The notes under the pieces were generated by a model that was not told the DNA's origin, searched no databases, and saw only the letters and a program-made list of their open reading frames with translations. Positions 1 to 23,188 of a stretch of DNA of 64,000 nt are shown piece after piece. Numbering within the stretch: position 1 is the first letter of the stretch; each line of letters begins with the position of its first letter. Made by a program: the position numbers and the translations under genes. The stretch comes from an uncultured bacterium (lineage in GTDB: Bacteria; CAIWAD01), in NCBI GenBank assembly GCA_903910645.1, contig CAIWAD010000124.1:16445-80444 (forward strand). Reading direction: 5' to 3'.

Positions 1-1098
1 CTTCAGGGACAGAAGGCCCAGGAAGCCCAGGATGAGGGCGATGATCCAGAAGCGGATGACCACCTTGGTCTCCGCCACGCCGCGATGCTCGAAGGCGTGG
101 TGGATGGGTGCGCGATAGAAGATGCGCCGCCCCAGGATGCCGATGCCAATCTTCTCCTGGATCAGCACGCTGGCTCCTTCCAGCACAAAGACGCCGCCCA
201 CGATGAGGAAGAGCACTTCCTGGCGCAGCATGAGCATCACGGCGGAGAGCAGGCCGCCCAGGGCCATGCTGCCCGTGTCTCCCATGAAGACCTGCGCCGG
301 AAAGAAGTTGTACCACAGGAAGCCCAGACCGGCGCCGATGACCGCGCCGCTCAGCACGGCCAGTTCCCCCATGCCGGGCACATAGGTGAATTGCAGGTAG
401 CCGCTCAGCACCTCGTTGCCCAGCACATAGGCGAAAATGGCGTAGACCATGAAGGAGATGGAGGCGGGCACCACGGCCAGGCCGTCCATGCCATCGGCGA
501 AGTTCATGCTGTTGGAGACGCTCAGGAAGACCATTACCACCCATGGCACGGCCAGCCATCCCAGATCCAGCACCGGCCCTTTCACAAAGGGCAGCATGAG
601 CTGGCTGCGCAAATCCTCCGGCAAGGGCGAGGCCGCGGAGATGAGCCAGACACCAAAAGCGGCGCCATAGGCCCCCTGTAGCCCGAGTTTGGACAACTGG
701 GAAAGGCCATGCTTGCCGCTGCCACCCTTCAGCTTGCCCCAGTCGTCCAGCATGCCCACGCCGCCAAACCACAACAGGGCCGAGACCGCCGCCCAGGCGA
801 ATGGGCTGTCCGGGGTCAGCCACAACAGGTAGCCACCCAGGATGGCCAGGATCATCATCAGGCCGCCCATGGTGGGAGTGCCTCGCTTGTTGGAGACATC
901 AATGACCCCGTAATCCTCCACCACATCGCGGATGCGCTTGCGGTGCAGGAAAAGGATCACCCGGCGGCCGATGAGCAGGCTTACAAGGAAAGTGGTCAAC
1001 GCGGCCATCACGGCGCGGAAAGTCAGGTAGTGCACCAGGCGCAGGAAACCGGGGCCGCCCAGCTCCTCACGCAGGAGGTCCGCCAGCCAGATCAGCAT
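1..1098 (-). CDS. mraY: Phospho-N-acetylmuramoyl-pentapeptide transferase MraY (3' end truncated by window edge)
   Basis: My reverse-complement translation from the ATG at 1096-1098 reads MLIWLADLLREELGGPGFLRLVHYLTFRAV...MGDTGSMALGG...IRFWIIALILGFLGLLSLK. These are classic MraY motifs. A GGAGG Shine-Dalgarno sits upstream. The frame continues past position 1. This ORF is not in the supplied track because no stop lies within the window. Confidence 0.9.
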   Translation of the reverse strand, partial: MLIWLADLLREELGGPGFLRLVHYLTFRAVMAALTTFLVSLLIGRRVILFLHRKRIRDVVEDYGVIDVSNKRGTPTMGGLMMILAILGGYLLWLTPDSPFAWAAVSALLWFGGVGMLDDWGKLKGGSGKHGLSQLSKLGLQGAYGAAFGVWLISAASPLPEDLRSQLMLPFVKGPVLDLGWLAVPWVVMVFLSVSNSMNFADGMDGLAVVPASISFMVYAIFAYVLGNEVLSGYLQFTYVPGMGELAVLSGAVIGAGLGFLWYNFFPAQVFMGDTGSMALGGLLSAVMLMLRQEVLFLIVGGVFVLEGASVLIQEKIGIGILGRRIFYRAPIHHAFEHRGVAETKVVIRFWIIALILGFLGLLSLK

Positions 1099-3074
1099 GT
1101 TTCCTCCGCTTTCTGGCCGGCCAGATCCCGCATGGCCTGTTTCAAGGGAAAGCGTGGGCGGAAATGTGTGCTGGTGAGCAGGAAGCTGTCCAGCTCGCCT
1201 TTCAGATCCGCCAGGGGAAGCTCGCCACCATGCACGCGCAAGTCCAGCGCCCGGATGGCCGCCTCACGCACGCGGCAATTGGCGTGTCGCGCCAGTGGCA
1301 GAATCCACTCCCGCCAGGATGCGGCCGGCATGCAGGCCGCCCACCACCACGCCACGGCCTGCGCCTCCTCGAAATTGCCCTTGAGGCGGAAGCGGGCCAT
1401 GTGCCGCACCACAGCCTCCGTGGCCTCAGCCTTCAGGACCCCCAGGCTGCGGATGGCCTCCACCCGCGCTTCCCAGTAGGGATCCTTCAGCGCCGCTCCC
1501 AGCACGCGCGCCGAATCCGCCGTCAGCGGCAATTCCGCCAGGGCCGTGCACAGGTTGCGGCGGATGAAGCCGTTCTGACGGTGGCGCTCGCCCATCAGGC
1601 GTGGCAGCAAGCCAGGCCTTCCCTTGTCCTCCGCCAGACGCACCAGCAGGGGCAGGGCATCCTGAAGCCCAAGGCGGCCCGCCAGTTTGATGCCGGCGTT
1701 GCGTTCCAGCCAGGAAGGACTGCAGAGGGCCGCCAGACAGCGGTATTCCACATAGCGCACATCGTGGGGATCCGTCAGGCGCGGCAGCCGCTGCAGAAGC
1801 TGTTCCGTGCCCAGACGCTCCAGCGTGGCGCCCGCGGGCACCTGCCCCGCGCCATCCAGGGTCGGCAGCGTGCCAATGGCCAGCACCGAGGCCAGCCGAC
1901 CCAAGCGCTCGCGGGCATCGGCGTGGAAACCGGATCGCGCGCCGCGCGAGAGCCCCTCCCGACGCTCCTTGTCCTCCAGCAAGGCCAGCAAGGCTTCCAG
2001 CAGACGCTCCGGCCGCACACCCGCCTCGATGCCATGGCCCTCCACCAGTGGCTCCTCCAGCAGCAACTCCGCGGCTCCCGCGCGCTCCGCGCTACGGGCA
2101 TTGGCCGTTTGGTGGTCTCCCGGAAGGCCCATTTTGGGAATCAGCAGTGCGGGCCGCCCCATGGCAAGCAGTTCAAAGATGGCGCCTGCGCCAGCCCGGC
2201 AACACACCAGATCCGCCGCTCCATAGGCCAGCTGGATGCGGTCGAAATAGGGCCTGGCGTGATACAGGGGCGCCAGCTCCGCCCAGTCGGGAACTTCACG
2301 AAACAGGCGGCCCAGCTGTTCGGCGTGCTCCGCGGTGGCGTCCCATGCCGTTCCCGCCGACATGCCGGTGCCGTGCAGCACCTGGATGCCCTTGCGCAGG
2401 AGTTGGGGCAGGATGTGGTACAAGGCGCGGTTGATGGCCCGGGCCCCCTGGGATCCGCCGAAGACGAACAGCACGGGGCGGGCGGGATCCAGTCCCAGTT
2501 CGCGGCAGGCTTCCACGCGGTCGGGCAGCTGCTCCAGCCCCGCACGCACGGGATAGCCCACGGTGTGGGTGCGGCAACCCGGCAAATGGCCGGCGGACTC
2601 GGGGAAGGTAAGGGCCACCAGATCCGCCACGCGGCCCGCCATGCGGTTCATCAACCCGGCGCTGGCGTTCTGCTCATGGATGAGAATGCCGCAGCGCAAC
2701 AGGCGCAGTTTGCGCAACAGCGCGGCGGCGAAAACCGTGGGCGCGGCGGCGTAGCCTCCGGTGGCCACCACCACCTGCGGCCGGAAACGCAGCAGGTGCA
2801 GGGAGGCCTGGGCCACGCCCAGGATCAGCTTCGCAATGAAGAGGGGAAGGCGCGGCGAGCGCAGTCCGGGAAAACCCACGGCGGGGGCGGACTGAAAGGG
2901 CAAGTCCAGCTGGCCGCTCTCCTGCAAGCCGCGCAGGATGCGCTCCTCCGCCCTTCCGCGCGTGCCAATGTACAGGCCCTTCCACGAGCCATCCGCCAGC
3001 AAGGCCTGGGCCACCGCAAGCGCCGGGTAGACATGTCCACCCGTCCCGCCGCCAGTGAACACCACCCGCTTCAC
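1092..3074 (-). CDS. murG: MurG glycosyltransferase (undecaprenyl-PP-MurNAc-pentapeptide GlcNAc transferase) fused to a C-terminal ~290-aa HEAT/PBS-lyase-like repeat domain
   Basis: ORF 1092..3233 contains VKRVVFTGGGTGGHVYPALAVAQAL and GGYAAAP, then AADLVCCRAGAGAIFELLAMGRPALLIPKMGLPGDHQTANA. These are MurG G-loop and C-terminal motifs. The likely start is the GTG at 3072-3074, overlapping the upstream stop as GTGA. The C-terminal third carries repeats such as DPYWEARVEAIRSLG and ANCRVREAAIRALD in the same uninterrupted frame. Confidence 0.85.
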   Translation of the reverse strand: MKRVVFTGGGTGGHVYPALAVAQALLADGSWKGLYIGTRGRAEERILRGLQESGQLDLPFQSAPAVGFPGLRSPRLPLFIAKLILGVAQASLHLLRFRPQVVVATGGYAAAPTVFAAALLRKLRLLRCGILIHEQNASAGLMNRMAGRVADLVALTFPESAGHLPGCRTHTVGYPVRAGLEQLPDRVEACRELGLDPARPVLFVFGGSQGARAINRALYHILPQLLRKGIQVLHGTGMSAGTAWDATAEHAEQLGRLFREVPDWAELAPLYHARPYFDRIQLAYGAADLVCCRAGAGAIFELLAMGRPALLIPKMGLPGDHQTANARSAERAGAAELLLEEPLVEGHGIEAGVRPERLLEALLALLEDKERREGLSRGARSGFHADARERLGRLASVLAIGTLPTLDGAGQVPAGATLERLGTEQLLQRLPRLTDPHDVRYVEYRCLAALCSPSWLERNAGIKLAGRLGLQDALPLLVRLAEDKGRPGLLPRLMGERHRQNGFIRRNLCTALAELPLTADSARVLGAALKDPYWEARVEAIRSLGVLKAEATEAVVRHMARFRLKGNFEEAQAVAWWWAACMPAASWREWILPLARHANCRVREAAIRALDLRVHGGELPLADLKGELDSFLLTSTHFRPRFPLKQAMRDLAGQKAEETC

Positions 3075-4147
3075 GCGTGGGCCTCGCGCAGGCGATCCAG
3101 CGCGCCGCCCTGGACTTCGCGCCGGGCCGCGTCGCACACCCGGCGCAACTCCGGACAATTGTGGAAGGCGGGGTTTTCCAGCAGCTCCAGCAGGTGATCC
3201 AGCGCCGTCGGCACATGCTGCAGGAACCACCACTTCCCTTTCACCCGGCTGAGCAGGCCATAAGCGCCAAGGGCCTGCATCATGCGATGGGCGGCCACCA
3301 GCGGGTATAGAGCCAGAAAAGAGGCGGCGCTCTCCAGTCCGCGCTCCTCGCGGCGAAGGGCGTAGCCCTCCAGCAGCTGGGCCCGGGTGGCGGAAGGCAG
3401 CCGCAGGTAGGGATCGTTGATGAAGGAGGCCACATCGTACTGTGGCGGACCCAGGCGGGCGCCCTGGAAGTCAATGATGCGCCAGCGTCCCGCCGTGCGC
3501 AGCACATTGGTGCTCTGGAAATCCCGGAAGAGGATGCCCCAGCGCGTCTGGGTCTCCACTTGGCGCGCCAGCGCGTCGCACTCCGCATGGAAGGCCGCGC
3601 GGTCCAGCGGCAGGCCCATCAGGCCATCCACGAAACGCTCACGGAAATAGCCGGATTCCCACACCGTCATCAGCTCATGGTCATAGGGAAGTGCGTGGAC
3701 GCGGCTTGGGTCGAATTGGCCGTGCAGGCCAGCCTGCAAATCCAGCAGAATCTCCAGCACCTCCGCCATCCACCGGGCGGTGAGTGGCGAGTCCCGACCT
3801 TCGCGCTCCACCATGGCCAGCAGGAGCTCGTCTCCCAGATCCTCCACCAGGTACCAGTGGGCGTCCAGATCGGCGTGCACCAGGCTGGGCCCATGTCCAC
3901 CCGCCTCCTGGAGCAGACCGCCCACATACCAGAAGGAGTGGTTCTCGTTCAACGGCCCACCAAAGGTCTGGGGGGTGGGGTTCTGCACCAGCACCAGGCT
4001 ATGGTCGCTGTCGCCGTGGGGCCAGATGCGGGTCATGACGCGGTCGCTGCCCCCACCCGGCATGTGCCAGGCGCGGGGCTCGCGATGTTCCAGGCCGGCC
4101 GCCGCCAGATAGGCCGCGGGCTGAAGGAGGGGATCGGGCATGCTCAT
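3071..4147 (-). CDS. APH-fold phosphotransferase/kinase, AmgK-like (putative anomeric MurNAc/GlcNAc kinase)
   Basis: 358 aa. FRDFQSTNVL and IIDFQGARLGPPQYDVASF resemble the Brenner/catalytic-loop and DFG-like motifs of the aminoglycoside-phosphotransferase/AmgK family. Translationally coupled to murG by a GTGA overlap. Confidence 0.5.
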   Translation of the reverse strand: MSMPDPLLQPAAYLAAAGLEHREPRAWHMPGGGSDRVMTRIWPHGDSDHSLVLVQNPTPQTFGGPLNENHSFWYVGGLLQEAGGHGPSLVHADLDAHWYLVEDLGDELLLAMVEREGRDSPLTARWMAEVLEILLDLQAGLHGQFDPSRVHALPYDHELMTVWESGYFRERFVDGLMGLPLDRAAFHAECDALARQVETQTRWGILFRDFQSTNVLRTAGRWRIIDFQGARLGPPQYDVASFINDPYLRLPSATRAQLLEGYALRREERGLESAASFLALYPLVAAHRMMQALGAYGLLSRVKGKWWFLQHVPTALDHLLELLENPAFHNCPELRRVCDAARREVQGGALDRLREAHA

Positions 4148-4305
4148 GCCCGAAGGTAGGGCTTTGGCGCAAAGGAGTCTGTTGGGCCTGGCTCACCTGC
4201 GGGATTGGCGCACATGCGGTGGATGTGTTTTGAAGTCCAATGCCCAGGAGATCAGCGAGAATCCTCACACAGCGGAAGTGGCATGGAGCGCCAAGTAGCC
4301 AAGCC

Positions 4306-6306
4306 TTAGCGCAAGAGACTTAATCGTTGCACGCTGCGCCCATTGGGCGTTTCCAGCACCAGCAGATAAAGTCCGCCCGCCAGGCCTTCGCCATCCAGGC
4401 GCGTCACAAATGCCCCGGCGGGACCATTGCCTTCCACCAGACGCCGCACTTCCTGACCGGCCAGGTTGAAAAGGCGCAGGCTGCGCGTGCCGGCCTGGTG
4501 GCTTTCCCAACTGATCAGGGTGGAAGGGTTGAAGGGATTGGGCCAGGCCTCCAGCAGGGGGATTTCCGTGGCGCGGGGAGGCACCACCACCGGCGGCCCG
4601 GGCTTCACATCCGTTTCATCCACTTGCAGGGCCAGCGAGCAGGTCTGACCCCCCGCAATGGCGGTAAAGCCCACATTGGGTTGGGGAACCACGCATTGAC
4701 CGTAAAGAAAATGCCCCCACGCCACCACGCTTCCGTCGCTCTTCAAGCCCATGCTGTGCAGGCTGCCACAAGCCACCGCCACAAAGTCTGTGTTGGGCTC
4801 CGGCACATCGCATTGCTGCCAGCCATTCCAGCCCCAGGCAACCACGCTGCTGTCCGCGCGCAAGGCCAGGTTGTGGTAGGGTCCGGCGGCGATGGCGGTG
4901 AAGCCCTCATTGGGGGAAGGCAGGTCGCACTGGCCGTACTCGTTGTTGCCCCAGGCCGCCAGAACTCCGCTCTGGCGCAAGCCTATGGTGTGCAGACCAC
5001 CGGCGGCCACATCCCGCCAATTGGTATTGGATCCTGACACGGTGCATTGGCCCGCCGAGTTCAGGCCCCAGCAGGAAATCATGCCGTTGCTGCGCAGTCC
5101 CACGCTGTGGGCCGTGCCGGCGTCCACTTTCAGCCACCCCATGTTGGGGCCGGGCACCACGCATTGGTTGAAGAAATTCCATCCCCAACCCACGGCCGTG
5201 CCGTCCTGCCGCAGGCCCATGCTGTGGTTACCGCCCGCCGAGACCGCATTGAAGAGCGTGGCGGCAGGCACGGAGCACTGTCCGTAGCTGTTGTCTCCCC
5301 AGGCCGCCACCGTGCCGTCCTCGTGCAGGAGCAGGCTGTGGTACTCGCCCGTGTCCACGGCGCGGGCCCACTGACCCAGCCCGCCTGGCAGGCACTGTCC
5401 ACGGGCGTTGTCCCCCCAGAGCAGGAGAGTGCCATCCTGCCGCAGGGCCAGGCTGAAGTTTCCGCCCGCGGCGATGAACACGCAATCCTGCGCCTCATCC
5501 GGCACGGCGCATTGGCCCAGGCTGTTGTCGCCCCACGCGGCCACCGTACCATCCTCCCGCAAGCCCAGGCTGTGTCGGGCGCCAGCGGCGATGGCGCTGA
5601 AGCCGCTGTTGGGCTCCGGCACCTGGCACTGGCCCTGCTCATCCCAGCCCCAGGCCACAATGGATGCATCCTGCCGCAGCAACAGGCTGTGGGCCTCGCC
5701 GGCGGCAAGGGCCAAGCCGCCGACGGCGTCTTCCGGCACCTGGCATTGGCCGTGGAGATCATTCCCCCAGGCCTGCACGCCTCCATTCTCCAAGAGCACC
5801 AGGCTGTGGAAGTGGCCCGCCGCCACGGCCCGGCAGGGTGGCAGGGAGTCCGGCACGGCGCATTGGCCTTCTGTGGACCTTCCCCAGGCCGCCACTCCGC
5901 CACTGTCCCGCAATGCCAAACCGTGGCCAATGCCGGCGGCCACGGCCACGAAGTGTTCGTTGGGCTCCGGCGTCAGGCATTGCCCCTGGGTGTTCCACCC
6001 CACTGCAAGCACGGTGCCATTGGCGCGCAGGCCAACCGTGAAGGCGTCCCCCGCCGCCACCTGAACCCAATGGGCATTGGCGCCAGGCAGGAAGCCTTGT
6101 CCCCAGGAGTTGTCTCCCCATACCACCATCACGCTGTCCGGCGTGATGCCCAGGCCGTGTCCCACGCCGCAGGCCGCCTGCGCAAGCCCGTGGGTCAGGC
6201 GCGGGGCCGGCACCAGCAGGGTGCCCCAGGCGCTCAGGGCCGCATGGTTCTGGGCAAGGGCAACAAGCGGCGCAAGTCCAAGCAGGCATCGCAGAAGGAC
6301 GGTCAT
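4306..6306 (-). CDS. Secreted RCC1-repeat beta-propeller protein with T9SS (Por) C-terminal sorting domain
   Basis: Signal peptide MTVLLRCLLGLAPLVALA. More than 10 tandem ~50-aa repeats fit the RCC1 repeat consensus: V(A/V)AWG.N..GQC.VP with a later AAG..HSL.L. The C-terminus is PNPFNPSTLISW...LFNLAGQEV..L....G......DG..LAGGLYLLVL....G, matching the TIGR04183 Por_Secre_tail pattern. Confidence 0.75.
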   Translation of the reverse strand: MTVLLRCLLGLAPLVALAQNHAALSAWGTLLVPAPRLTHGLAQAACGVGHGLGITPDSVMVVWGDNSWGQGFLPGANAHWVQVAAGDAFTVGLRANGTVLAVGWNTQGQCLTPEPNEHFVAVAAGIGHGLALRDSGGVAAWGRSTEGQCAVPDSLPPCRAVAAGHFHSLVLLENGGVQAWGNDLHGQCQVPEDAVGGLALAAGEAHSLLLRQDASIVAWGWDEQGQCQVPEPNSGFSAIAAGARHSLGLREDGTVAAWGDNSLGQCAVPDEAQDCVFIAAGGNFSLALRQDGTLLLWGDNARGQCLPGGLGQWARAVDTGEYHSLLLHEDGTVAAWGDNSYGQCSVPAATLFNAVSAGGNHSMGLRQDGTAVGWGWNFFNQCVVPGPNMGWLKVDAGTAHSVGLRSNGMISCWGLNSAGQCTVSGSNTNWRDVAAGGLHTIGLRQSGVLAAWGNNEYGQCDLPSPNEGFTAIAAGPYHNLALRADSSVVAWGWNGWQQCDVPEPNTDFVAVACGSLHSMGLKSDGSVVAWGHFLYGQCVVPQPNVGFTAIAGGQTCSLALQVDETDVKPGPPVVVPPRATEIPLLEAWPNPFNPSTLISWESHQAGTRSLRLFNLAGQEVRRLVEGNGPAGAFVTRLDGEGLAGGLYLLVLETPNGRSVQRLSLLR

Positions 6307-6494: not shown

Positions 6495-8135
6495 CTATTG
6501 TACGGCGCGCACCTGGAATACCTTCATGCCCGTGGCGGGCAGCACAAGGGAAGTACCCGTCGTGCTTCCTTCCAGGGTCATGGTGGAGTAACCCGATGTG
6601 GAGCTGTAGACATTGTAGCTGACAGCCAGGGGCACGGCCGTCCAGCTTAGCACCGCCTGTCCGCCCGTGTAGGTGATGTCCAGTCCGGGGGCGCAGAGGA
6701 AGTTGTCCCAGGCCACCGTGGGCAGGGTCACCACGGGGGTGGCATCATCCAGGGTCAGGGCGCGGTTGGCAATGCCATTCTCCCATTCCCAATTGGTGCC
6801 GTCCATGGTGTGGGTGAACTTGTACTCCACATCAAATGCCGTTCCGGCGGGGAAGACCACCGTGCCCGTCCACACGCCGTCGGCATCGCCATCGGCCAGG
6901 GCATTGGAGCCGCCCGTCCAGTCCAGGGGAGCGGCACTGCCTTGCACGGCCACGCCCGTCACGCCGCTCATGCAACCCATGTTCACGGCGAAGTCCACGC
7001 TGACATCCACCGTGGTGCCCACGGGCGGGGTCCAGTTGTTCCACAGGTCGGCGTCAAGCAGCATGAAACCGTTGTCGGCCATGCACAGGAAACGGTTGGG
7101 AGTGTCTTCCCAGCTCCACACCGTGCCGTTGCTGCGGGTGAACTTGTACTCACTGGTGTTCACGGTGCCAATGGGGAAGCTGACCGTGAGGGTGTAGACG
7201 CCGTCGTGGTTGAAATCGTTCATGGGCCGGCCGCCGGCGGTCCAGTTCAGCGGAGCGCGGCTGCCCTGCAGGGAGACGCCACCCGAATAGCTGGCGGGAT
7301 CCTGGTTGCGCATGTCCACGGCGAAGACCACCTGCTGCTGGGCCACCAGGGGATGCTCGATGCAGGGACAGACCTCCTGGTCGTTCCAGTAGCCCATGTA
7401 GCTGCCTTCCGTGGCGCCCAAGTCAATGGTGTACTCGCGGTTGGCGAAGGGACCGCCCGACAGGGATTCCCAGGCGGTGCCATTGCGGAACTTGAACTCG
7501 ATGGTGGTGGCGGAGCCAGCGGGCCAGGCGATGTCGGTGCTGTAAAGTCCACCGCCCACCGGGGTCATGGCCTGATAGTTCCAGCCGTTAAAGGAGCCGG
7601 AAATGCCCGGGCCGGGGCCATCGGGGGCCACGCAATGGAAGTCGCCGGTCACATGCAGCACGAAATTCTCCGTGGTGGCCTGCTGCACCAGATAGTAGGC
7701 CGGAGAGACTGCATTGAAGGTTCCCATGGGACTGCCCGGACGAGCCGTGAACTCCGCCGCGCCGTCGCCATCGGCGAATTCGCAGTAGAAGAACACGCTG
7801 TCACCGGTCAGGGCGCTCACGGGGATGTCGGCGAAGTACTCGTCCATGGGCGTGTAGCAGTCGCCGATGTTCAGGGTCATGGGCAGAGATGTGAAGCTGC
7901 CTTGTCCCTGGGCGCGATAGTAGAAGGTCTCGGTCATGTCGGCGCACTCCGTGCTGTCGCACATGCCGGTGCAACCGGTCTTCAGGGCGCGGGCATAAAC
8001 GCGGACGGCGTTGCCGTTGGGCACCGTGTCGCCGTTCTCCTGCCACTGCAGGTAGCTCTGCTCCACCAGGGCCGCCGCCGGCTGGGCCAGGACGGCCAGC
8101 AGGGCAGCCACTGCGGAAAAGTGAAGGACTTTCAT
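6495..8135 (-). CDS. Secreted protein with three CBM20-like (starch-binding-like) repeats and a C-terminal FN3-like segment
   Basis: Signal peptide MKVLHFSAVAALLAVLAQPAAA. The repeats contain EFKFRNGTAWES...ANREY, EYKFTRSNGTVWSWEDTPNRF and EYKFTHTMDGTNWEWENGIANRA. These resemble the CBM20 EYKF...V.WE.G.NR signature. Confidence 0.5.
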   Translation of the reverse strand: MKVLHFSAVAALLAVLAQPAAALVEQSYLQWQENGDTVPNGNAVRVYARALKTGCTGMCDSTECADMTETFYYRAQGQGSFTSLPMTLNIGDCYTPMDEYFADIPVSALTGDSVFFYCEFADGDGAAEFTARPGSPMGTFNAVSPAYYLVQQATTENFVLHVTGDFHCVAPDGPGPGISGSFNGWNYQAMTPVGGGLYSTDIAWPAGSATTIEFKFRNGTAWESLSGGPFANREYTIDLGATEGSYMGYWNDQEVCPCIEHPLVAQQQVVFAVDMRNQDPASYSGGVSLQGSRAPLNWTAGGRPMNDFNHDGVYTLTVSFPIGTVNTSEYKFTRSNGTVWSWEDTPNRFLCMADNGFMLLDADLWNNWTPPVGTTVDVSVDFAVNMGCMSGVTGVAVQGSAAPLDWTGGSNALADGDADGVWTGTVVFPAGTAFDVEYKFTHTMDGTNWEWENGIANRALTLDDATPVVTLPTVAWDNFLCAPGLDITYTGGQAVLSWTAVPLAVSYNVYSSTSGYSTMTLEGSTTGTSLVLPATGMKVFQVRAVQ

Positions 8136-8161: not shown

Positions 8162-11100
8162 TCACAAGCCTGTGCCGACGGCGGTGACCACGAAGCATGC
8201 GCCCGGGCCCGCCACCGGCAGAGAATGACTGGTTCCGCCCGTTTCCGCCAGGGGGGCGCCGGAGGGCGCGTCCCAGGGATGGGCCAATTGATGGATGCGA
8301 TAGGAAATGGCTCCCGGCACCACCGCCCAGCTGAGAAGCACGGTTCCATCGGGCTGCACCGATGCGCTCAGCACCGGCGCGGCGGGCGCCACCGCCACGG
8401 GATTGTTGGGCGCCACGCCCATGAGCGGCATGGGTCCGGCCAGGGGTGGCTGGGCGAAGGTCCACCAGCTGTTCAGCGTGACATTGGTGCCCACGGGATT
8501 GGCCTGGGGCCAGGCCACCACCGTTACCTGGTTGTTCTCCTGGGTGAAGTGGGCGCACAACGCCAGGCCCACGGGGTTGCCCAATTCGCTCCAGGGGATG
8601 CGCAGCTCCGTCAGCGTGTTGCCCGTCCAGCCCTCGTAACTGAGGCCCGTGTGGGTGCCGAACTGGCGGTAGGTCCAGGCGCCGGCACTCCATCGGTTGA
8701 TCTGCATGCTGTTGCCGCCGCCCTCCACCGCCACGCAGTATTCGGGGCGATGGGCCGTGGTGTAGCCCACACGGCTCCATGAGTCACGCGTGGCGCCGCT
8801 TCCCGCCACCAGATCCGTGTCGATGCCAAGAAAGAAATCCCCCAGGGAAAGGGCGCGACCGTGCCAGCCCACATAGAGTGCCTGGCTGTCCCAGGTAAGG
8901 AAAAGGCTGTCGCTGCGGGATTCCATCAGCTCCGTGGAAGGGATGAAGTCCCAGGTGCCATCCACCAGCACGCTGTGGGGCGTTGTGCCGTTGGGCACAG
9001 TGAACGCCGCCGTGTCGGCGGCGGGATCCACCAGATTCCCGGCCACATCCCGCACACCCACGGCGCGCAGGGAGCCGGACATGCCGCCGCTCAAGCCCGA
9101 CAGCCTTAGATAGACCCGCCGCGTGTAGGCCTGGCGCTCCGCTGACAGAAGGGTGACACCGCCCGGGAAGCCGCTCAGTTGCCAGCTGCCGGCAAGTTCC
9201 GCGCTGACTTCGTCCACGGCCTCATTGAAATCCACCACGGCAATGTTCGGGGCAATGAAGGCCGCCGTGCCCACCACCTGGGGGCCCTTCACATCCAGGT
9301 CCGTGGCAGCCAGGTCAAGAAGCTCGGGCACTTGTCCCTGTGCGTTGGGAGCCGTGCTGCGTCCGGCATAGAAGAGATAGCGGAAACGCCCGTCGCCGCG
9401 AATTTCGTCACCCTTCACCAGGGTGCCCTGGAAGTCCGAGGAATGCAGGGCGCCACCGTTGCCCAACACCAGCGCGGCCGTCCAGCCGGTGGTGGTGTTG
9501 CGCTGGCCCATCCAGTCGCTCTGGGGCCAGGATGCCCCGGGATCCCACAAGCGCGTGGTGCGGGCATTCCACAAAAGATCCAGGTAGTCCGGCGTGAAGC
9601 CGTGTTTCACCCAGGTCTCCGACGGCGTGTCGTAATCGCAGGTGATCCAGGGCTGGCCGGCTTGCACCGTGAAGCTCTTCACCAGCCCGCCACTGTGGAC
9701 AAGGCGCACCCGGGCGAATCCCGCGCCCAGGCTGTCAACGGTCATGGCGTAGGGATCATTCTCCGTGAGGGGGCTTACATCGCTGAAGGCCGCCACATGA
9801 TTGTTGGAGGAGCCATCGTTGAAATCACCCTCCGTGTCAACCCAGTAGGCGCTGCAGGAGCCCACCAGGCTGACGGCGTCGGTGCTGTCCTTGGCGAAGA
9901 TCCACGGGGCGCGGCCGCCGTTGGACTCGAAGACCGCCAGCACGCGATCACTGAAGAGCACCATCTCCTCCACGCCGTCGGCGTCCACATCCGCCGCCTG
10001 GGCGCCGGTGCCCTGCCAGGCCTGGCCGCCTTGCCAGCGCCCCGCCTCGGCGTAGACGCGGGCGTTCTTGATGTGCGAGGCATAGCGATGGATCCAGCCA
10101 CTCACCTCGCTGCCATCATGCCATCCGGTTTCGTAGAGATTGGTCATGAGCACATACCAGGCCAGGGTGGACAGATCGTTGTCCGGGCTGCCCATCACCC
10201 AGTTCCAGCTTTGATCCCAGCTTTGGCCGTAATTCCACTGGGGGCTGTGCAGGTCGCTGTGGCTGGGGCTTCCGGCGAAATGCCCATACCAGCTGTTGCG
10301 CGTGCCCGGGCTGAGCCAGTCCGAACCATAACCACCCCGCCCGCCCAACAGGCCGTAAGTGCCGTTCTGCAGGTTGATGGCGCCGCCGCCAAATCCGCCC
10401 AGGGCGTTGTCCAGCTTCATGGACTCCACGCTCCCCGCGGCGCCGGCGATTTGCTGCACCAGCCAGATCATGTTGTTCAACGCACTGGGGAACTGGTCCC
10501 CGAAACCCGCCACCTCCGCCACCACTTCCCAGTCCGTGCCGTAGACCAGCAGTTCATCGGCGCTGGAATCCAGGATCATGTTCCAGGCACTGCCCGCGTC
10601 CCAATGGCAGGCACCGGTGAAGGAGCCGTTGATGGGAATGACCTGCAGATCGCCCTGGCCGGGCACATTGATGGTGTAGATGTGGCGGTCGTTGGCCCAG
10701 TTGTTCTGGTAGTCGCAGTGCTCCTCCTGGTCCAGCAGCACGCCCCACACGCCGTGCGGCAGCCAGTCATCGCCAATCCAGTCCACCACATGGGGCGAAG
10801 TGTCCCAGGCGTTGCCGTCGTTGTCCGTGGGGCTTACCCACACACGCTCCGGCACCCAGGCCACATGGGGCGTGTAGCCGTAGCGCCAGGCGGTCATCTG
10901 CGCGTGGGTGTGCACGGACCAATCGTTCATGCTGTCCTGCACGAAGGGCATGATGTGCTGGGCGTAGGCGCTGGTGAGCATGCCGGCCCACCCCTCGGAC
11001 ACGCCGCGTGTGAGCCAGGCGTTCCAACCTTCCACCGCGCCGGTGGGGTAGTACCACTCCGCCGCCGTTTGCAGGGGGCCGGACACATGGAAGTTGGCGG

Positions 11101-11836
11101 GCACATTGAGCACATCGTGCAGGCCCAGGATCTCGTCGAAGCCGTTGTGGGCGCTGCCGGTGTTCAGGTAGTCCATGAAGTGCTGGCCGTGGGCGGAGGC
11201 TTCGTCCCCCCACAGCACATCCGTCCAGGTAAGGCCCTGGTTGCCGTGGTGCACAAAAGCCACATGGTGGTTGACCCGTTCGCCATCGCGGCTGGCCACA
11301 TCGTCCACCGCGGGACTGGTCACGGTGCCCTCATGCGTGCTTAGACGCAAGGGAGCCTCCACACCCAGCAGGGCCGTCCATTCAACCCAATCCGCCGGCA
11401 GCCACAGCTCCATCACGGTGGCGCCAAGGGCCCGGCGCAGATCCGGCCGCGCCTTCTCCACCGTTCGCCACTGGCCCTGTTCCAGGACCTGGCGCTCCAG
11501 ACGCTCGTCGCCATTCAACACCAGACGCGCCGCCTTGGCCCCGTCCTGCGCCTCCACCACCAGCAGGGACTTGTCCTGCCAAGCATCGCGGGTGCCCACG
11601 CGCAGCACGGCCTGACCGTCCAGCACGCCAGCGCAGGCCAGGCTCAAGTCCAGGTCCTGACGCTGCAACCCATCAACTGCGTCCAGACCCACCATGCGCA
11701 GGCCGGGCGTGAAGCCTGGAGCATTGCCCAAGGGGGCTGCATATCCACCACCAGCAAGCATACACGGAAGCAGTATGCCCAAAATCAGCTTTGCGCCTGG
11801 GTGAAAATGAATGGGGGGATGGACTGGCCGCGGCAT
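8162..11836 (-). CDS. Large secreted carbohydrate-active enzyme, GH57-like (alpha-glucan hydrolase/amylopullulanase-like) with FN3-like C-terminus
   Basis: ORF 8162..11878; the likely start is the internal Met before the hydrophobic signal AKLILGILLPCMLAGG. HVAFVHHGNQGL resembles GH57 region I. WVPERVW resembles GH57 region III, which carries the Glu nucleophile. Adjacent to a CBM20-repeat gene. Family assignment is tentative. Confidence 0.4.
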   Translation of the reverse strand: MPRPVHPPIHFHPGAKLILGILLPCMLAGGGYAAPLGNAPGFTPGLRMVGLDAVDGLQRQDLDLSLACAGVLDGQAVLRVGTRDAWQDKSLLVVEAQDGAKAARLVLNGDERLERQVLEQGQWRTVEKARPDLRRALGATVMELWLPADWVEWTALLGVEAPLRLSTHEGTVTSPAVDDVASRDGERVNHHVAFVHHGNQGLTWTDVLWGDEASAHGQHFMDYLNTGSAHNGFDEILGLHDVLNVPANFHVSGPLQTAAEWYYPTGAVEGWNAWLTRGVSEGWAGMLTSAYAQHIMPFVQDSMNDWSVHTHAQMTAWRYGYTPHVAWVPERVWVSPTDNDGNAWDTSPHVVDWIGDDWLPHGVWGVLLDQEEHCDYQNNWANDRHIYTINVPGQGDLQVIPINGSFTGACHWDAGSAWNMILDSSADELLVYGTDWEVVAEVAGFGDQFPSALNNMIWLVQQIAGAAGSVESMKLDNALGGFGGGAINLQNGTYGLLGGRGGYGSDWLSPGTRNSWYGHFAGSPSHSDLHSPQWNYGQSWDQSWNWVMGSPDNDLSTLAWYVLMTNLYETGWHDGSEVSGWIHRYASHIKNARVYAEAGRWQGGQAWQGTGAQAADVDADGVEEMVLFSDRVLAVFESNGGRAPWIFAKDSTDAVSLVGSCSAYWVDTEGDFNDGSSNNHVAAFSDVSPLTENDPYAMTVDSLGAGFARVRLVHSGGLVKSFTVQAGQPWITCDYDTPSETWVKHGFTPDYLDLLWNARTTRLWDPGASWPQSDWMGQRNTTTGWTAALVLGNGGALHSSDFQGTLVKGDEIRGDGRFRYLFYAGRSTAPNAQGQVPELLDLAATDLDVKGPQVVGTAAFIAPNIAVVDFNEAVDEVSAELAGSWQLSGFPGGVTLLSAERQAYTRRVYLRLSGLSGGMSGSLRAVGVRDVAGNLVDPAADTAAFTVPNGTTPHSVLVDGTWDFIPSTELMESRSDSLFLTWDSQALYVGWHGRALSLGDFFLGIDTDLVAGSGATRDSWSRVGYTTAHRPEYCVAVEGGGNSMQINRWSAGAWTYRQFGTHTGLSYEGWTGNTLTELRIPWSELGNPVGLALCAHFTQENNQVTVVAWPQANPVGTNVTLNSWWTFAQPPLAGPMPLMGVAPNNPVAVAPAAPVLSASVQPDGTVLLSWAVVPGAISYRIHQLAHPWDAPSGAPLAETGGTSHSLPVAGPGACFVVTAVGTGL

Positions 11837-12022
11837 GGAAGCCCTTTCATCATCATAGGAACCCGCGAGAGCGAGCAAAAATGACGCCAGAAGGTCGGAC
11901 AGGCTTTCTTATTGATAATCATTGGCTTGGCTTGAAAAATCCACGAAGGGATGGGAATTGCCTTGCTCATAGCGCCGGAAATTGAACAGCATGGGGGAGC
12001 AATCCAAAAGAGGGTTCAGGAG

Positions 12023-16487: not shown

Positions 16488-18143
16488 TCAATAAGGTGCC
16501 GAGTCGTGGGCGTGGCCGTGGCACATCAAGGTGCAGTTGCCCTGGCTCAGGGATTGGCGCTCCACTTTCAGCCGGCCATCCAGCGGCTCAATCCAGGGTC
16601 GGTCCAGGCGCAGCAGGCCAGGCTGGTCCGGCGAGCCGTGGGGATCATGGCAGGAGGCGCAGGACAGGGCTCCGCGCCCCGTGTGCAGGTTGTGCCAGCG
16701 CCATCCTTCACCGCTGCTGAAGGAGCTTTCCTGATGGCAGGTGAAGCACAGGGCGTTCTCGCGGTCTTCACCTGTGGCGAAAGGCGAGGGATTGAAAGGC
16801 GCCTTGAGCAGGTGTTCGATGTTGGATCCGTGGGGGCCCTGGGGACCGGCGGGATCGTCGCTGCCATGGCAGTCGGAGCAGGTGATTTGGTCCAGGGCGC
16901 TCCATTCCTTTTTCAGGCTGGGCACCTCCGGATTCAGGCCGGGACCCATCACCGGATGGTAGCTACGGTTGCCCAAATCAAAATCCCGCGCCACATCGCG
17001 CTGGCCGGGAAGCGTGTTGCCCGTGAAGCCGTGGCACTTGAGGCAGATTTCGTATTCGAAGTCCGCCACATCCTTTTTCATGCCCAATCGGCTGATGCCG
17101 CTGACACCCTCCATGCTCCCCGGCATGGTGCGCACGCTGGACTGGCTGGACACAGCGTGGGGATTGTGGCAATCCGTGCAGCGCACGGCGCGGTTTTCAC
17201 GCGATCCCGCCAGGAAGCCCACAAAGCCCGACCCGTCCGGCTCCACGGTGCGGGAACCCGTGTGCACGCTCACCGGGTGGGTGAAGAGCTTGTCGAACTC
17301 CGCCCGCATGTTGTTGGGCGAAGGAATTTCCCTGGGCCCATCCACGCTGGCGTCGTGGCAACGGAAACACAGACTGTTCTCCTCCGCCAGCAGGAGGCGC
17401 GGCTGGGGTGGTGATGCGTGGATGCTGTGGCACTGGGCGCAGCTCAGTTCGCGCATCTCCGCGTAGAGGGGCTCGTCCGGGTTGGCGTGCACACTGTGGG
17501 ACCAGCCCTCCAGTCGGTGGCACTCCTGGCAAATGGCCCCCTGGGCGGACTCCACCTTCAGGAACTTGCCACGCGTGTTGTCGTGGGGGTCGTGGCAAGT
17601 GCTGCAGCGGATGCGCTCCCCGCGCAGGGTCATGCCCGAGGTGGCGCTGTCCGGTTTGGCCAGCTCGTGGTTGCGCGACCAGGTGAAGAGGTGAGTGTTC
17701 ATGTGGGTGGGCGCAATCTGCGCTCGTTCACCCAGATCCGTCTCCCGGCTGATGTGTTCGGCGGGATCCGTGGGAAAGGCCCGGGCCACGCTGCCATCGT
17801 GGCAGGCCAGACACAGTTGGCTGCCCGGATCGGCGGGGAAACCAGGCTCCAGATCATCGAGATGGGCACCCAGGGGGAAGGGCCCGCGGGGCAGGCGCCG
17901 GTCCCACAGGGGAATGAGCTGGTCGTGCACGCGGGGTCCGTGGCACACGCGGCAGAGCTGGCGCTCCATGGTGGTGTCGGAGGGCATCCCGGTGTGCCAG
18001 TGGGTCAGGTTGTGGGGTGAGGCCTGCACGCGGGAGGCTTTCACCTGGTCGGGATCGCTGGCCCCTGCCAGCAGGGCAAAGGCGCCCAGGGAAAGCGCGG
18101 GAAGGACGATCAGGGCCGCCCGGCGGAGCGAGAACATCACCAC
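16488..18143 (-). CDS. Multihaem c-type cytochrome (~12 haem-binding motifs)
   Basis: Signal peptide followed by CRVCH, CLACH, CSTCH, CQECH, CAQCH, CFRCH, CTDCH, CLKCH, CSDCH, CFTCH, CASCH and CTLMCH. The start overlaps the upstream OMP stop (TGATG). Confidence 0.85.
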   Translation of the reverse strand: MVMFSLRRAALIVLPALSLGAFALLAGASDPDQVKASRVQASPHNLTHWHTGMPSDTTMERQLCRVCHGPRVHDQLIPLWDRRLPRGPFPLGAHLDDLEPGFPADPGSQLCLACHDGSVARAFPTDPAEHISRETDLGERAQIAPTHMNTHLFTWSRNHELAKPDSATSGMTLRGERIRCSTCHDPHDNTRGKFLKVESAQGAICQECHRLEGWSHSVHANPDEPLYAEMRELSCAQCHSIHASPPQPRLLLAEENSLCFRCHDASVDGPREIPSPNNMRAEFDKLFTHPVSVHTGSRTVEPDGSGFVGFLAGSRENRAVRCTDCHNPHAVSSQSSVRTMPGSMEGVSGISRLGMKKDVADFEYEICLKCHGFTGNTLPGQRDVARDFDLGNRSYHPVMGPGLNPEVPSLKKEWSALDQITCSDCHGSDDPAGPQGPHGSNIEHLLKAPFNPSPFATGEDRENALCFTCHQESSFSSGEGWRWHNLHTGRGALSCASCHDPHGSPDQPGLLRLDRPWIEPLDGRLKVERQSLSQGNCTLMCHGHAHDSAPY

Positions 18144-19932
18144 AGTCTCCTCAGCACATGGATCCAGGCCTCCGTGTCCTTCCGTCCAAAGTGGTCGGGA
18201 TCGCCCACGAAGCGCAGGTCGGTGGTCAGGGTCAGCTTGTTCAGTTCAAACTCCACGAAGGAGCGCAGCCACATGCGCTCGGACAACTGGTCCCGGCCAG
18301 GCCGCCAGGTGCCGCGCACATTCAGCGAGGCAAGACGCAGCGGCTGCCAGCGCAGATGCATGGACAGGCGGTGTTCCAGGTCCACCAGATCCGCCGCCAC
18401 CAGGTGCTGCAATGCCATGGCGCTCAACTGGGCCTGCAAGCGATGGCCCCGGGCTTTCACCCACACTTCGTTCTTCAGCGTGTTGCGCAAAGTGTCGTCG
18501 CTGTAGACCAAATGGCTGCCCACATGGCGGCGCCACTCCAGACGATGTCCGCCCTGCAGGGTGCCATGGGGATTCAGTGTGCTGTTGAAGCTGGTCAACT
18601 GATCCAGCTCCTTCTGGGAAGGATCGGCCCAGGGGGCCACTGTTTCCCGGTCTTGCATGCGGAAGAGCTCCGCTCGCTGCAGGGCGCGCATGCTGAAGCC
18701 CAGCCAGGGCAGGGGCTCCACCGGCGCGATCATCTCCACCGTGGCCCGTCCCACCAGCCCGCGGCCATATTCGCGCGTCTCCGCCCAGCCGCCGCCCAGG
18801 TCGCCGCGCAGGGACAGATTGCGCTTCAACCACAGGGAGCGATCCATGAACCGGGACCAGGACTGGTGTTGGCCCGCGGCCTCCACCGCCGCCGCCATAC
18901 GCGCCAGGGGCTTCACCTGGAAGACCGCCAGGGCCAGCACATCCCGCCTGTGGACAAGATCCTCGTCCGTGATGCGCACGCGCTCGGTGGAGGCGCGCAG
19001 TTCGGCGCCCACTTCCTCCAAGGGCATCCAGCGCCAGGAGGCGTCGGCGTGACGGCGCAGCACATCCCGCTCCTCCAGCTCGGTGAAATCCGCGCCGGCA
19101 TTGATGGACAGGCGATGCTTCCCCCACAAGGTGGTGCGCAGGCGGTTCTGCCCCAGCACGCGGCGCACGCCCTTGCGCTGCACCAAAGCCGAGTTGCTGT
19201 GGACATCCACGCCACCAGGCAGCTCACCCGCCATGCTCAAGCCCGCAAGGCTGCGCTGAAGATCGAAGTCAAGGCTGTCCGCCAGGCCATACCAGGAGCT
19301 CTCGCCCCAGGCACGCGCCACGAACTGGTGCCAGGCGGGCACGCGGTGCTCCACCTCGGCCCGCATGAATCGATGGTCCGAGATGGCCTCGCCATTGAGC
19401 ACGCGACGGTTGCCCGCCACCACTCCCAGCTCGGTGGTGGGCATGGGACGCAGGGCCAGGCGCCCGCCCACGATCAGGTCGCGCAGGCGCAGGCTGTCGA
19501 TGAGGAAGGCATTGGGACGCCGCCAGCCGTGACGGGCGAAGAGTCCCAGTTCCACTCCGCCCAGGGGCGTCCAACCCAGGTCCGCCTGGAACTCGGGCGT
19601 GTAGATGCGCTGCTCGTAAAGACTGTTCTGTGCCATGGTGGCGCCGGTGCGCAGCAGCCAGTCCAGGCCGCCGGCCTTTTGCACCTGGCCATGGGCACCC
19701 ACCACCACCCGCGCCGTGTGCAGGCGCAGGTCCTCCCCGTAGGCCCCGGCGTAGCTGGAATCACTGACCCAGGTGCTGGTGTGGTCAATCCAGCCGTCCA
19801 GGGTGAAGGATCGCGACGGCTGATAGGCGGGCGCCTGCACCCATGTCGGAACCTGGAACGCGCCCAGCGCCGAACCGACAAGGGAAAGGGCGAAGAGCAA
19901 GGCGCAACGCATGTGGCGGGATCCTCTCATGG
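18137..19932 (-). CDS. Outer-membrane beta-barrel protein (putative porin component of a porin-cytochrome complex)
   Basis: The real start is an internal Met: MRGSRHMRCALLFALSLVGSALGA (signal). It runs ~570 aa with alternating amphipathic segments and ends in an aromatic residue (...VLRRLW). No TM helices. The upstream N-terminal extension of ORF 18137..20482 overlaps the NHL gene and was rejected. Confidence 0.6.
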
Positions 19933-23165: not shown

Positions 23166-23188
23166 GGGGCCCTCCGGCGCGGGCTGTG

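What the first reader, a model, noticed from the sequence alone, without database searches (positions are those of the whole stretch)
1092..3074. MurG fused to a HEAT-repeat domain in a rearranged murG-mraY arrangement
The MurG glycosyltransferase domain (~370 aa) continues without a stop into ~290 aa of HEAT/PBS-lyase-like repeats. The gene lies directly upstream of mraY with a 1-nt spacer. The canonical dcw order mraY-murD-ftsW-murG is absent within the window. A HEAT scaffold on MurG could tether it to divisome or elongasome partners or to MraY. I am not aware that this fusion has been described.
Basis: seen in the sequence. Interest (0 to 1): 0.6.

Follow-up and report, generated by a model that had tools for sequence, protein, structure and literature searches.

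The report
MurG fused to mraY-linked HEAT module
The cell-wall enzyme MurG here really does carry an extra helical-repeat (HEAT) domain, and this undescribed domain always sits directly in front of the gene for MraY, the preceding enzyme in the pathway, so it probably docks the two enzymes together.

Summary
One 660-codon minus-strand ORF (3074..1092) encodes a complete MurG glycosyltransferase (residues 1 to about 400), a short linker, and a 237-residue HEAT-type helical solenoid (423-659). No stop codon or frame change separates them.

It is not an assembly artefact. Ten near-identical 660-aa copies come from independent assemblies. More than 100 protein clusters, down to 32% identity, keep the same full-length architecture.

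The main result goes beyond the finding. The HEAT module is a distinct, unnamed family with four architectures:
- on its own (about 225 aa)
- MurG-HEAT
- MurG-MurJ-HEAT
- MurJ-MurG-HEAT

In all 107 loci with downstream sequence, the gene carrying the module is followed directly by mraY, usually with a 4-nt or 7-nt stop/start overlap. The upstream partner varies (ftsW, murG or murJ).

My best explanation, which is inferred and not shown, is that the module is a cytoplasmic partner of MraY. Fused to MurG, it would hold the lipid II synthase next to the lipid I synthase.

Two details in the finding are wrong: mraY overlaps murG by 7 nt (there is no 1-nt spacer), and the extension is about 260 aa, not about 290. 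I found no paper describing any of this. Verdict: a new variant of a known kind, of moderate to high interest.

The parts
1092..3074 (-). murG::HEAT fusion gene, 660 codons plus a TGA stop
   Evidence: ORF list. Pfam hits to GT28 N and C domains and HEAT_2. Best NCBIfam hit is murG TIGR01133 at 218.8 bits. Identical 660-aa public gene call P0152. AlphaFold2 model with pLDDT 93.9 and pTM 0.90.
1875..3074 (-). MurG two-domain (GT-B) glycosyltransferase part, residues 1 to about 400
   Evidence: Foldseek against the PDB puts MurG structures first: 1f0k, 1nlm and 3s2u, E 1e-19 to 3e-20, target-normalised TM 0.78-0.88. Catalytic motifs GGTGGH, HEQN and GGSQGA are conserved.
1809..1874 (-). Linker, residues 401-422
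   Evidence: Non-helical in the model, with block-mean pLDDT of 72-81, lower than in the flanking domains. Variable in length and sequence across homologues.
1095..1808 (-). HEAT-type helical solenoid, residues 423-660. Signature motifs: W..RN.G(V/I)K, GF(I/V)RRN, D.Y(Y/W)E(V/A)R, and C-terminal F.P.F.(L)K(E/Q)
   Evidence: Pfam HEAT_2. Domain-only model with pLDDT 94.6 and 14 helices. Foldseek best matches are alphaRep HEAT-like binders and the CpcE/F lyase. 211 representative proteins match the domain profile. Invariant residues across all architectures.
1..1098 (-). mraY, 366 codons, cut by the window edge about 2 codons before its end
   Evidence: NCBIfam mraY TIGR00445 at 271.6 bits, above the 192.05 cut-off. 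Aligns end to end with E. coli MraY 8g01, E 1.9e-74.
1092..1107 (-). murG/mraY junction: GGAGG at 1107-1103, mraY ATG at 1098-1096, murG TGA at 1094-1092, giving a 7-nt overlap
   Evidence: Read directly from the sequence. The same type of overlap, 1 to 8 nt, occurs in 20 of 31 loci and in most of a further 74 loci.
3071..4147 (-). APH-family sugar-kinase-like gene, best but weak match to AmgK. Its TGA overlaps the murG GTG (GTGA).
   Evidence: Pfam APH, E 2.7e-12. NCBIfam AmgK, E 1.4e-13, far below the cut-off. The same gene lies upstream of the fusion in L002, L003, L004 and L006.

Best explanation
**Shown**
- The gene encodes an intact MurG (the lipid II synthase) carrying a C-terminal helical solenoid of about 237 residues of the PBS/HEAT type. 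The solenoid belongs to a distinct, unnamed family.
- The fusion is real and is conserved across many uncultivated lineages.
- The gene that carries this module always lies directly upstream of mraY.

**Inferred**
- The module is a cytoplasmic protein-binding adaptor for MraY, the lipid I synthase.
- It is made in step with MraY through translational coupling.
- Fused to MurG, it would keep the MurG active site next to the cytoplasmic face of MraY, where lipid I is made. Lipid I would then be converted to lipid II without diffusing away.
- In other lineages the same module also carries the flippase MurJ, extending this to a MraY-MurG-MurJ assembly line.
- The module is never fused to MraY itself. 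A likely reason is that both MraY termini are periplasmic, whereas MurG is cytoplasmic and the ends of MurJ face the cytoplasm.
For: **The fusion is real**
- No stop codon lies between the two domains in 21 of 21 related loci.
- Ten near-identical 660-aa cluster members come from NCBI, ENA, JGI and Logan assemblies.
- More than 100 protein clusters of 650-720 aa cover 97-100% of the query, down to 32% identity.
- Codon-position GC is uniform across the whole ORF.

**The module is a family of its own**
- A profile search over 1.84 billion representative proteins gives 211 hits at E<=1e-3 and 118 at E<=1e-10.
- The best 150 fall into 59 MurG-HEAT, 11 MurG-(mid)-MurJ-HEAT, 3 MurJ-MurG-HEAT, 4 MurJ-HEAT and 73 HEAT-only proteins.
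- Fourteen residues are invariant across all architectures.

**Linkage to mraY**
- mraY follows the module-bearing gene in 33 of 33 loci from the first rounds and in 74 of 74 metagenome loci that have downstream sequence.
- The stop and start overlap by 4 or 7 nt in most cases.
- The upstream partner varies. It is ftsW in L024, L031 and L033-L036, a separate murG in L032, a fused murG in most loci, and a fused murJ in L023 and L030.

**Fold**
- The full-length model has pLDDT 93.9 and pTM 0.90, which suggests the two domains pack in a defined way.
- The domain alone best matches engineered alphaRep protein binders and the CpcE/F lyase, which are protein-binding scaffolds.

**Background from the literature**
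- MraY has 10 transmembrane helices and both its termini are periplasmic (PMC5039524).
- MurG is already reported to interact with MraY in E. coli and Caulobacter (PMC6420597).
Against: - No direct evidence of HEAT-MraY contact was obtained. A co-fold of the complex could not be run, and the structure tool returns no coordinates, so I could not inspect how the HEAT domain docks on MurG.
- Conserved gene order predicts a functional link, not necessarily a physical one.
- Most of the invariant residues (R/N in '(V/I)R..A..AL', and D.Y.E.R) are the standard structural signature of PBS-type HEAT repeats, so they do not point to a specific ligand.
- The net charge of the module is only mildly basic (median +4.5) and tells us little.
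- MraY proteins next to the module differ from E. coli MraY in their cytoplasmic loops. Without MraY sequences from related genomes that lack the module, this cannot be separated from ordinary phylogenetic divergence.
- The unfused L032-type modules lack the C-terminal F.P.F motif, so not every feature of the family is universal.
Confidence: 0.5

Rival explanations
1. The module binds MraY as a regulator, either a brake or an activator, and not as a passive tether. For example, it could match lipid I synthesis to the supply of UDP-MurNAc-pentapeptide or undecaprenyl phosphate. The fusion to MurG would then be a secondary convenience.
For: The strict linkage to mraY and the translational coupling fit this idea as well as they fit tethering. 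The module exists on its own in ftsW|HEAT|mraY clusters that have no murG nearby. MraY activity is known to be regulated, through feedback by flipped lipid II (PMC10914600).
Against: Repeated independent fusions to the two next enzymes in the pathway, MurG and MurJ, in three different arrangements are more easily explained by scaffolding than by regulation alone. No ligand-binding or sensor domain was detected.
Confidence: 0.2
2. The module binds something other than MraY, such as a Mur ligase (MurF), a cytoskeletal or divisome protein, or the membrane or a lipid carrier. Its position before mraY would then be inherited operon order only.
For: HEAT solenoids are generic binding scaffolds, and the fold search gives no specific functional relative. 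MurG is reported to bind MurD/E/F and MreB (PMC6420597).
Against: Adjacency held in 107 of 107 loci, most with overlapping stop and start codons, while the upstream neighbour changes and the rest of the dcw cluster is absent. That is much tighter than ordinary operon inheritance.
Confidence: 0.2
3. This MurG/MraY pair is a paralogous set that builds a different lipid-linked glycan, not peptidoglycan lipid II, and the HEAT domain is specific to that other pathway.
For: The MurG score of 218.8 bits is below the TIGR01133 cut-off of 250.25. The pair lies outside a dcw cluster. I could not scan whole genomes for a second murG or mraY.
Against: MraY passes the equivalog cut-off (271.6 against 192.05) and aligns end to end with E. 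coli MraY. The MurG catalytic motifs are intact. The standalone form of the module sits inside genuine dcw clusters, mraZ-mraW-ftsL-ftsI-murE-murF-ftsW-HEAT-mraY. The fusion partner MurJ passes its equivalog cut-off. The flanking genes resemble the MurNAc salvage enzymes AmgK and MurU.
Confidence: 0.07
4. The fusion is an artefact: a sequencing or assembly frameshift, or a lost stop codon, has joined two separate genes.
For: Two relatives show split genes, L027 (MurG 374 aa and HEAT 293 aa in overlapping frames) and L028.
Against: The L027 break falls inside the MurG fold, before its last helices. L028 is a long-read contig in which the kinase and mraY genes are also broken. Both therefore look like frameshift errors. 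The fused frame is intact in 21 of 21 loci, in 10 near-identical copies from independent assemblies, in more than 100 protein clusters, and in 67 further metagenome loci.
Confidence: 0.01

Closest known systems
Canonical MurG (E. coli 1F0K/1NLM, P. aeruginosa 3S2U; NCBIfam TIGR01133)
   Same: Same two-domain GT-B fold (target-normalised TM 0.78-0.88). Same G-loops and HEQN motif. Best family hit. Encoded next to another lipid II pathway gene.
   Different: Carries an extra C-terminal linker and HEAT solenoid of about 260 aa. Scores below the equivalog cut-off (218.8 against 250.25). Has an insertion in the C-domain, GTG..Y(D/H)A..(D/E)T, that is shared by MurGs associated with the module. Lies directly upstream of mraY, not after ftsW in a dcw cluster.
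Natural Mur chimeras: MurE-MurF, MurC-Ddl, MurC-MurB, MurG-MurC, MurD-FtsW, MraY-MurG (PMC10214165; PMC6420597)
   Same: Fusion proteins of the peptidoglycan precursor pathway, interpreted as evidence for multi-enzyme complexes.
   Different: Those chimeras join two enzymes. Here the added part is a non-enzymatic repeat scaffold. Neither a MurG-HEAT nor a MurG-MurJ chimera is listed in that survey.
PBS-type HEAT-like repeat proteins: Pfam HEAT_2/HEAT_PBS, the CpcE/CpcF phycocyanin lyase 5N3U, and engineered alphaRep binders 3LTJ/6GX7
   Same: Same repeat signature and solenoid fold (HEAT_2 E 7e-9; Foldseek E 1.5e-4 to 8e-4, query-normalised TM 0.5-0.58). These proteins act through protein-binding surfaces.
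   Different: Only about 20% identity. There is no phycobiliprotein context. The module has its own invariant motifs, including a non-HEAT C-terminal F.P.F.(L)K(E/Q) segment, and an exclusive genomic link to mraY.
Reported MraY-MurG(-MreB/MurF) interactions in E. coli and Caulobacter (cited in PMC6420597)
   Same: The same functional idea: the lipid I and lipid II synthases work in one membrane-associated complex.
   Different: In those organisms the contact is reported between the enzymes themselves, with no dedicated adaptor. Here a separate, conserved module appears to be dedicated to the link.
AmgK/MurU MurNAc salvage pathway of Pseudomonas and Tannerella (PMC5371407; PMC7670621)
   Same: The kinase upstream of the fusion has AmgK as its best NCBIfam match. 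The nucleotidyltransferase after mraY in the closest relatives has MurU as its best match.
   Different: All scores are far below the family cut-offs (50.7 against 550; 92.4 against 250). The murU-like gene lies outside this window. These genes flank the pair in only 4 of the first 20 loci.

Membership tests
MurG (GT28; TIGR01133) | Two Rossmann-like GT-B domains (Pfam PF03033 plus PF04101) | tested here: met
   Both domains score above their Pfam cut-offs. Foldseek puts MurG crystal structures first.
MurG (GT28; TIGR01133) | Conserved glycine loops (GGTGGH, GGY, GGSQGA), the HEQN motif and the C-domain acidic and Gln/Asn residues | tested here: met
   These align with 1F0K and are invariant or nearly invariant across 104 homologues.
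MurG (GT28; TIGR01133) | Score at or above the curated equivalog cut-off | tested here: not met
   218.8 bits against a cut-off of 250.25. It is still by far the best family.
MurG (GT28; TIGR01133) | Transfers GlcNAc from UDP-GlcNAc to lipid I | not testable with these tools
   Requires an enzyme assay.
MraY (TIGR00445), the downstream gene | Score above the equivalog cut-off and full-length alignment to solved MraY structures | tested here: met
   271.6 bits against 192.05. E 1.9e-74 to 8g01 over residues 1-366.
HEAT repeat (Pfam HEAT_2, PBS-lyase-like) | Pfam hit above the gathering score | tested here: met
   36.3 bits against 27.7, E 7.2e-9. Homologues also hit HEAT and HEAT_PBS.
HEAT repeat (Pfam HEAT_2, PBS-lyase-like) | Solenoid of stacked antiparallel helix pairs | tested here: met
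   The model has 14 helices and pLDDT 94.6. Its best PDB matches are alphaRep, CpcE/F and designed ARM repeats.
Phycobiliprotein lyase (CpcE/F) | Chromophore-attachment function and a phycobiliprotein gene context | tested here: not met
   The neighbours are mraY and a kinase, not phycobiliprotein genes. The similarity is at fold level only, about 24% identity.
Known Mur enzyme chimeras | Two peptidoglycan-pathway enzymes in one polypeptide | tested here: not met
   The second part is a repeat scaffold with no enzyme family hit. This type of fusion is not in the published survey.
Canonical dcw cluster | Gene order mraY-murD-ftsW-murG within a cell-division and cell-wall cluster | tested here: not met
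   Here the order is murG then mraY. There is no ftsW, ftsI, murE or murF in the 64 kb. The same isolated pair occurs in L029.
AmgK / MurU salvage genes (flanking genes) | Score above the NCBIfam equivalog cut-offs | tested here: not met
   AmgK 50.7 bits against 550. The MurU-like gene of L004 scores 92.4 against 250. These are best hits only.

The most novel reading that the evidence does not exclude
The HEAT module is a previously unrecognised, dedicated subunit of the lipid II synthesis machinery in several bacterial phyla. It would bind the cytoplasmic face of MraY and physically assemble MraY, MurG and, in some lineages, the flippase MurJ into one complex that passes intermediates from enzyme to enzyme. 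Natural MurG-MurJ-HEAT polypeptides would be ready-made material for solving the structure of that long-postulated complex.
Probability: 0.4. Interest if true: 0.78.

Novelty: new variant of a known kind. Interest (0 to 1): 0.62.

Why it matters
Whether MraY, MurG and the lipid II flippase work as one physical complex that passes lipid I and lipid II along is a long-standing open question. So far it rests mainly on two-hybrid and co-localisation data.

This family offers evolutionary evidence for such a complex:
- a dedicated scaffold domain tied to mraY in 107 of 107 loci;
- repeated fusion of that domain to MurG;
- in some lineages, fusion to both MurG and MurJ.

The fusions give concrete constructs for co-folding, co-purification and cryo-EM. 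They also define a new accessory component of an essential antibiotic-target pathway in poorly studied phyla (MAGs labelled Krumholzibacteriota, Latescibacteria, Delongbacteria and Planctomycetes). Current annotation calls these proteins simply 'MurG', 'glycosyltransferase', 'hypothetical protein' or 'HEAT repeat domain-containing protein'.

Tried and rejected
- **Artefact or frameshift:** rejected. The two split relatives, L027 and L028, look like frameshift errors.
- **First word-indexed search with the C-terminal domain alone:** found only one hit. The exhaustive HMMER search was needed.
- **Co-fold of HEAT with MraY:** not attempted.
- **Metagenome scan with the 13-sequence alignment A4:** the alignment was too diverse. 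I repeated the scan with the standalone-module alignment A5.
- **Promoter and terminator scan of 1-4500:** found nothing. This is uninformative for an organism that may not use sigma-70-type promoters.
- **Net charge of the module:** uninformative.
- **MraY cytoplasmic-loop differences from E. coli:** not interpretable without MraY sequences from related genomes that lack the module.
- **Chung et al. MraY structure paper (PMC3906829):** not held. MraY topology was taken from the review PMC5039524 instead.
Full report
**1. What is in the window**

On the minus strand, an ORF runs from GTG at 3074 to TGA at 1094-1092 and encodes 660 aa. Pfam finds the two halves of glycosyltransferase family 28 at residues 4-153 and 201-389. 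It also finds HEAT_2 at 504-558, with E 7.2e-9, above the gathering score.

The best NCBIfam family is murG TIGR01133, at 218.8 bits. This is below the cut-off of 250.25. GC content at codon positions 1/2/3 is 0.75/0.50/0.82 and is uniform through both halves.

The downstream gene is mraY. It scores 271.6 bits against TIGR00445 (cut-off 192.05) and aligns end to end with E. coli MraY 8g01. Its ATG at 1098 overlaps the murG stop by 7 nt (ATGCTGA), and a GGAGG lies 6 nt upstream of the ATG. mraY runs off the window about two codons before its end.

The upstream gene (4147..3071) is an APH-family kinase whose stop overlaps the murG start (GTGA). Its best NCBIfam match is AmgK, but only weakly.

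No ftsW, ftsI, murE or murF homologue occurs anywhere in the 64 kb. The ten large ORFs I scanned between 4.3 and 28.6 kb encode RCC1-repeat and CBM20 proteins, a Kup transporter, multihaem cytochromes and cytochrome b561 proteins.

**2. The fusion is not an artefact**

- The cluster of the window protein holds ten near-identical members from NCBI, ENA, JGI and Logan assemblies. Nine are 660 aa and one is a 443-aa fragment.
- A full-length search returned more than 100 clusters of 650-720 aa that cover 97-100% of the query, down to 32% identity. All carry GT28, and most also carry HEAT Pfam domains.
- In 21 related loci the two domains share one frame with no stop codon between them.
- Two relatives look split. 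In L027 the break falls inside the MurG fold, before its last helices. L028 is a long-read contig in which the kinase, the HEAT region and mraY are all fragmented. Both are best read as frameshift errors.

**3. The C-terminal domain is a family of its own**

A profile of the domain was searched against 1.84 billion representative proteins. It gave 211 hits at E<=1e-3 and 118 at E<=1e-10. The best 150 divide as follows:

| Architecture | Count |
|---|---|
| MurG-HEAT | 59 |
| MurG-(middle region)-MurJ-HEAT | 11 |
| MurJ-MurG-HEAT | 3 |
| MurJ-HEAT | 4 |
| HEAT only | 73 |

Some of the HEAT-only hits are contig-end fragments. Many others are complete proteins of about 222-245 aa that begin with Met. 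The module is always at the C-terminal end.

An alignment across all architectures has fourteen invariant residues, in window-protein numbering:
- W455, R458, N459, K463
- G502, F503, R505, R506, N507
- D531, Y533, E535
- P640, F642

Pfam and NCBIfam have no specific model for the module; only the generic HEAT_2 and HEAT models match. Public names for these proteins are 'MurG', 'glycosyltransferase', 'hypothetical protein' and 'HEAT repeat domain-containing protein'. They come from MAGs labelled Latescibacteria, Gemmatimonadota, Myxococcales, Planctomycetes, Krumholzibacteriota and Delongbacteria.

**4. The invariant partner is mraY, not murG**

In every locus examined, the gene that carries the module is followed directly by mraY.

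- This held in 33 of 33 loci from the genome scan and from individual look-ups.
- It held again in 74 of 74 loci from an independent metagenome scan. Six further loci ended too soon to tell.
- The stop and start codons overlap by 4 or 7 nt in most loci.

The upstream side varies:
- ftsW, in true dcw clusters of the form mraZ-mraW-ftsL-ftsI-murE-murF-ftsW-HEAT-mraY (L024, L031)
- a separate murG with a 20-nt gap (L032)
- a fused murG, in most loci
- fused murG and murJ (L023 and L030)

In a 6.58-Mb contig the murG::HEAT-mraY pair sits alone between a restriction-modification system and recG.

**5. Structure**

The full-length AlphaFold2 model was built with 104 homologues. It has pLDDT 93.9 and pTM 0.90. 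MurG spans residues 1 to about 400, a lower-confidence linker spans 401-422, and 423-659 is all helical. The high pTM suggests the two domains pack in a defined orientation, but no coordinates were available to inspect.

Foldseek places E. coli and P. aeruginosa MurG first. The domain-only model (pLDDT 94.6) best matches engineered alphaRep HEAT-like binders, the CpcE/F lyase and designed armadillo repeats. Those matches are modest, at E about 1e-4 and TM 0.5-0.58. The domain is therefore a generic protein-binding solenoid with no specific functional relative among solved structures.

**6. Local context in the closest relatives**

In L002 (69-83% identical), L003, L004 and L006 the order is:

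AmgK-like kinase, murG::HEAT, mraY, MurU-like nucleotidyltransferase, EEP-family phosphatase or nuclease.

The last two genes probably lie just beyond the edge of this window. This hints at a link between MurNAc salvage and lipid I/II synthesis, but all the family scores are far below their cut-offs.

**7. Mechanism**

Shown:
- an intact MurG fused to a conserved HEAT solenoid;
- strict linkage of that solenoid to mraY, usually with overlapping stop and start codons;
- recurrent fusion to MurG and MurJ, the two enzymes that act directly after MraY.

From the literature:
- MraY has both termini in the periplasm (PMC5039524).
- MurG has been reported to contact MraY (PMC6420597).

Inferred:
- The solenoid is a cytoplasmic adaptor for MraY and holds MurG (and MurJ) next to it.
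- The topology of MraY would explain why the module is never fused to MraY and always sits on the C-terminus of a protein whose end is cytoplasmic.

Rivals:
- a regulator of MraY, not a tether;
- a different binding partner, with the gene order simply inherited;
- a paralogous pathway that does not make peptidoglycan, which is unlikely given the equivalog-level MraY and MurJ scores and the dcw-embedded standalone forms.

**8. Novelty**

Full-text searches were run for MurG, MraY or dcw together with 'HEAT repeat', and for MurG-MurJ fusions. None found a description. The published survey of Mur chimeras lists MurE-MurF, MurC-Ddl, MurC-MurB, MurG-MurC, MurD-FtsW and MraY-MurG only.

The proteins are present but unremarked in public databases. 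I rate this a new variant of a known kind: a known enzyme with a new, conserved accessory module, plus a new conserved gene pair (HEAT module and mraY).

**9. Limits**

- There is no direct test of binding.
- There are no model coordinates.
- Whole genomes could not be scanned for second copies of murG or mraY.
- Taxonomic labels of several MAGs are inconsistent. For example, the closest relative has '68' in its isolate name, which may be its GC percentage, yet it is labelled Acetofilamentum, a genus of Bacteroidaceae.

Noticed in passing
window 3071-4147 (-); L002 5338-7096; L004 11802-13519: An AmgK-like kinase lies directly upstream of murG::HEAT. In the four closest loci a MurU-like nucleotidyltransferase and an EEP-family phosphatase or nuclease follow mraY. 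MurNAc-salvage-like genes may therefore bracket the lipid I/II genes. All family scores are far below their cut-offs.
   Followed up: partly
P0036, P0038, P0052, P0095 (L023); P0056 (L030); L083, L098: Natural three-part polypeptides MurG-MurJ-HEAT and MurJ-MurG-HEAT of 1190-1330 aa exist. Some carry an unassigned region of about 110 aa between MurG and MurJ that looked FHA-like by eye. I found no paper describing a MurG-MurJ fusion.
   Followed up: partly
L024 and L031 (also L022, L033-L036): In these loci (the L024 MAG is labelled Planctomycetes) the dcw cluster reads mraZ-mraW-ftsL-ftsI-murE-murF-ftsW-HEAT-mraY. mraY therefore comes after ftsW, and no murD, murG or murC appears in the stretch seen.
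   Followed up: no
window 1-1098 (-), MraY residues about 333-337: The MraY 'HHH' motif of E. coli (PIHHHYE) reads PIHHAFE here. Across MraYs linked to the module, the third His is not conserved. Several cytoplasmic loops also differ from E. coli in a consistent way.
   Followed up: partly
P0295, P0296 (L032): The genuinely unfused murG|HEAT|mraY form has a module that lacks the otherwise conserved C-terminal F.P.F.(L)K(E/Q) motif.
   Followed up: no
window 16488-28599 (-): A run of large multihaem c-type cytochromes (paired CXXCH, MtrC/MtrF-like domains) and cytochrome b561-type proteins suggests an extracellular or periplasmic electron-transfer module.
   Followed up: no
window 4306-6306 (-) and 6495-8135 (-): A 666-aa protein with 11 RCC1 repeats ends in a segment that, by eye, resembles the type IX secretion sorting domains that Pfam detects in neighbouring genes of related loci (L004, L028). 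Next to it is a CBM20 starch-binding-domain protein.
   Followed up: no
window 8162-11878 (-) and 18137-20482 (-): Two long ORFs, of 1238 aa and 781 aa, have no Pfam match at E<=1e-4.
   Followed up: no
L002, L003, L006 (record titles): The closest relatives are public MAGs labelled 'Acetofilamentum sp.' or 'uncultured Bacteroidaceae'. More distant relatives are labelled Krumholzibacteriota or Delongbacteria. The labels are mutually inconsistent and probably unreliable.
   Followed up: partly
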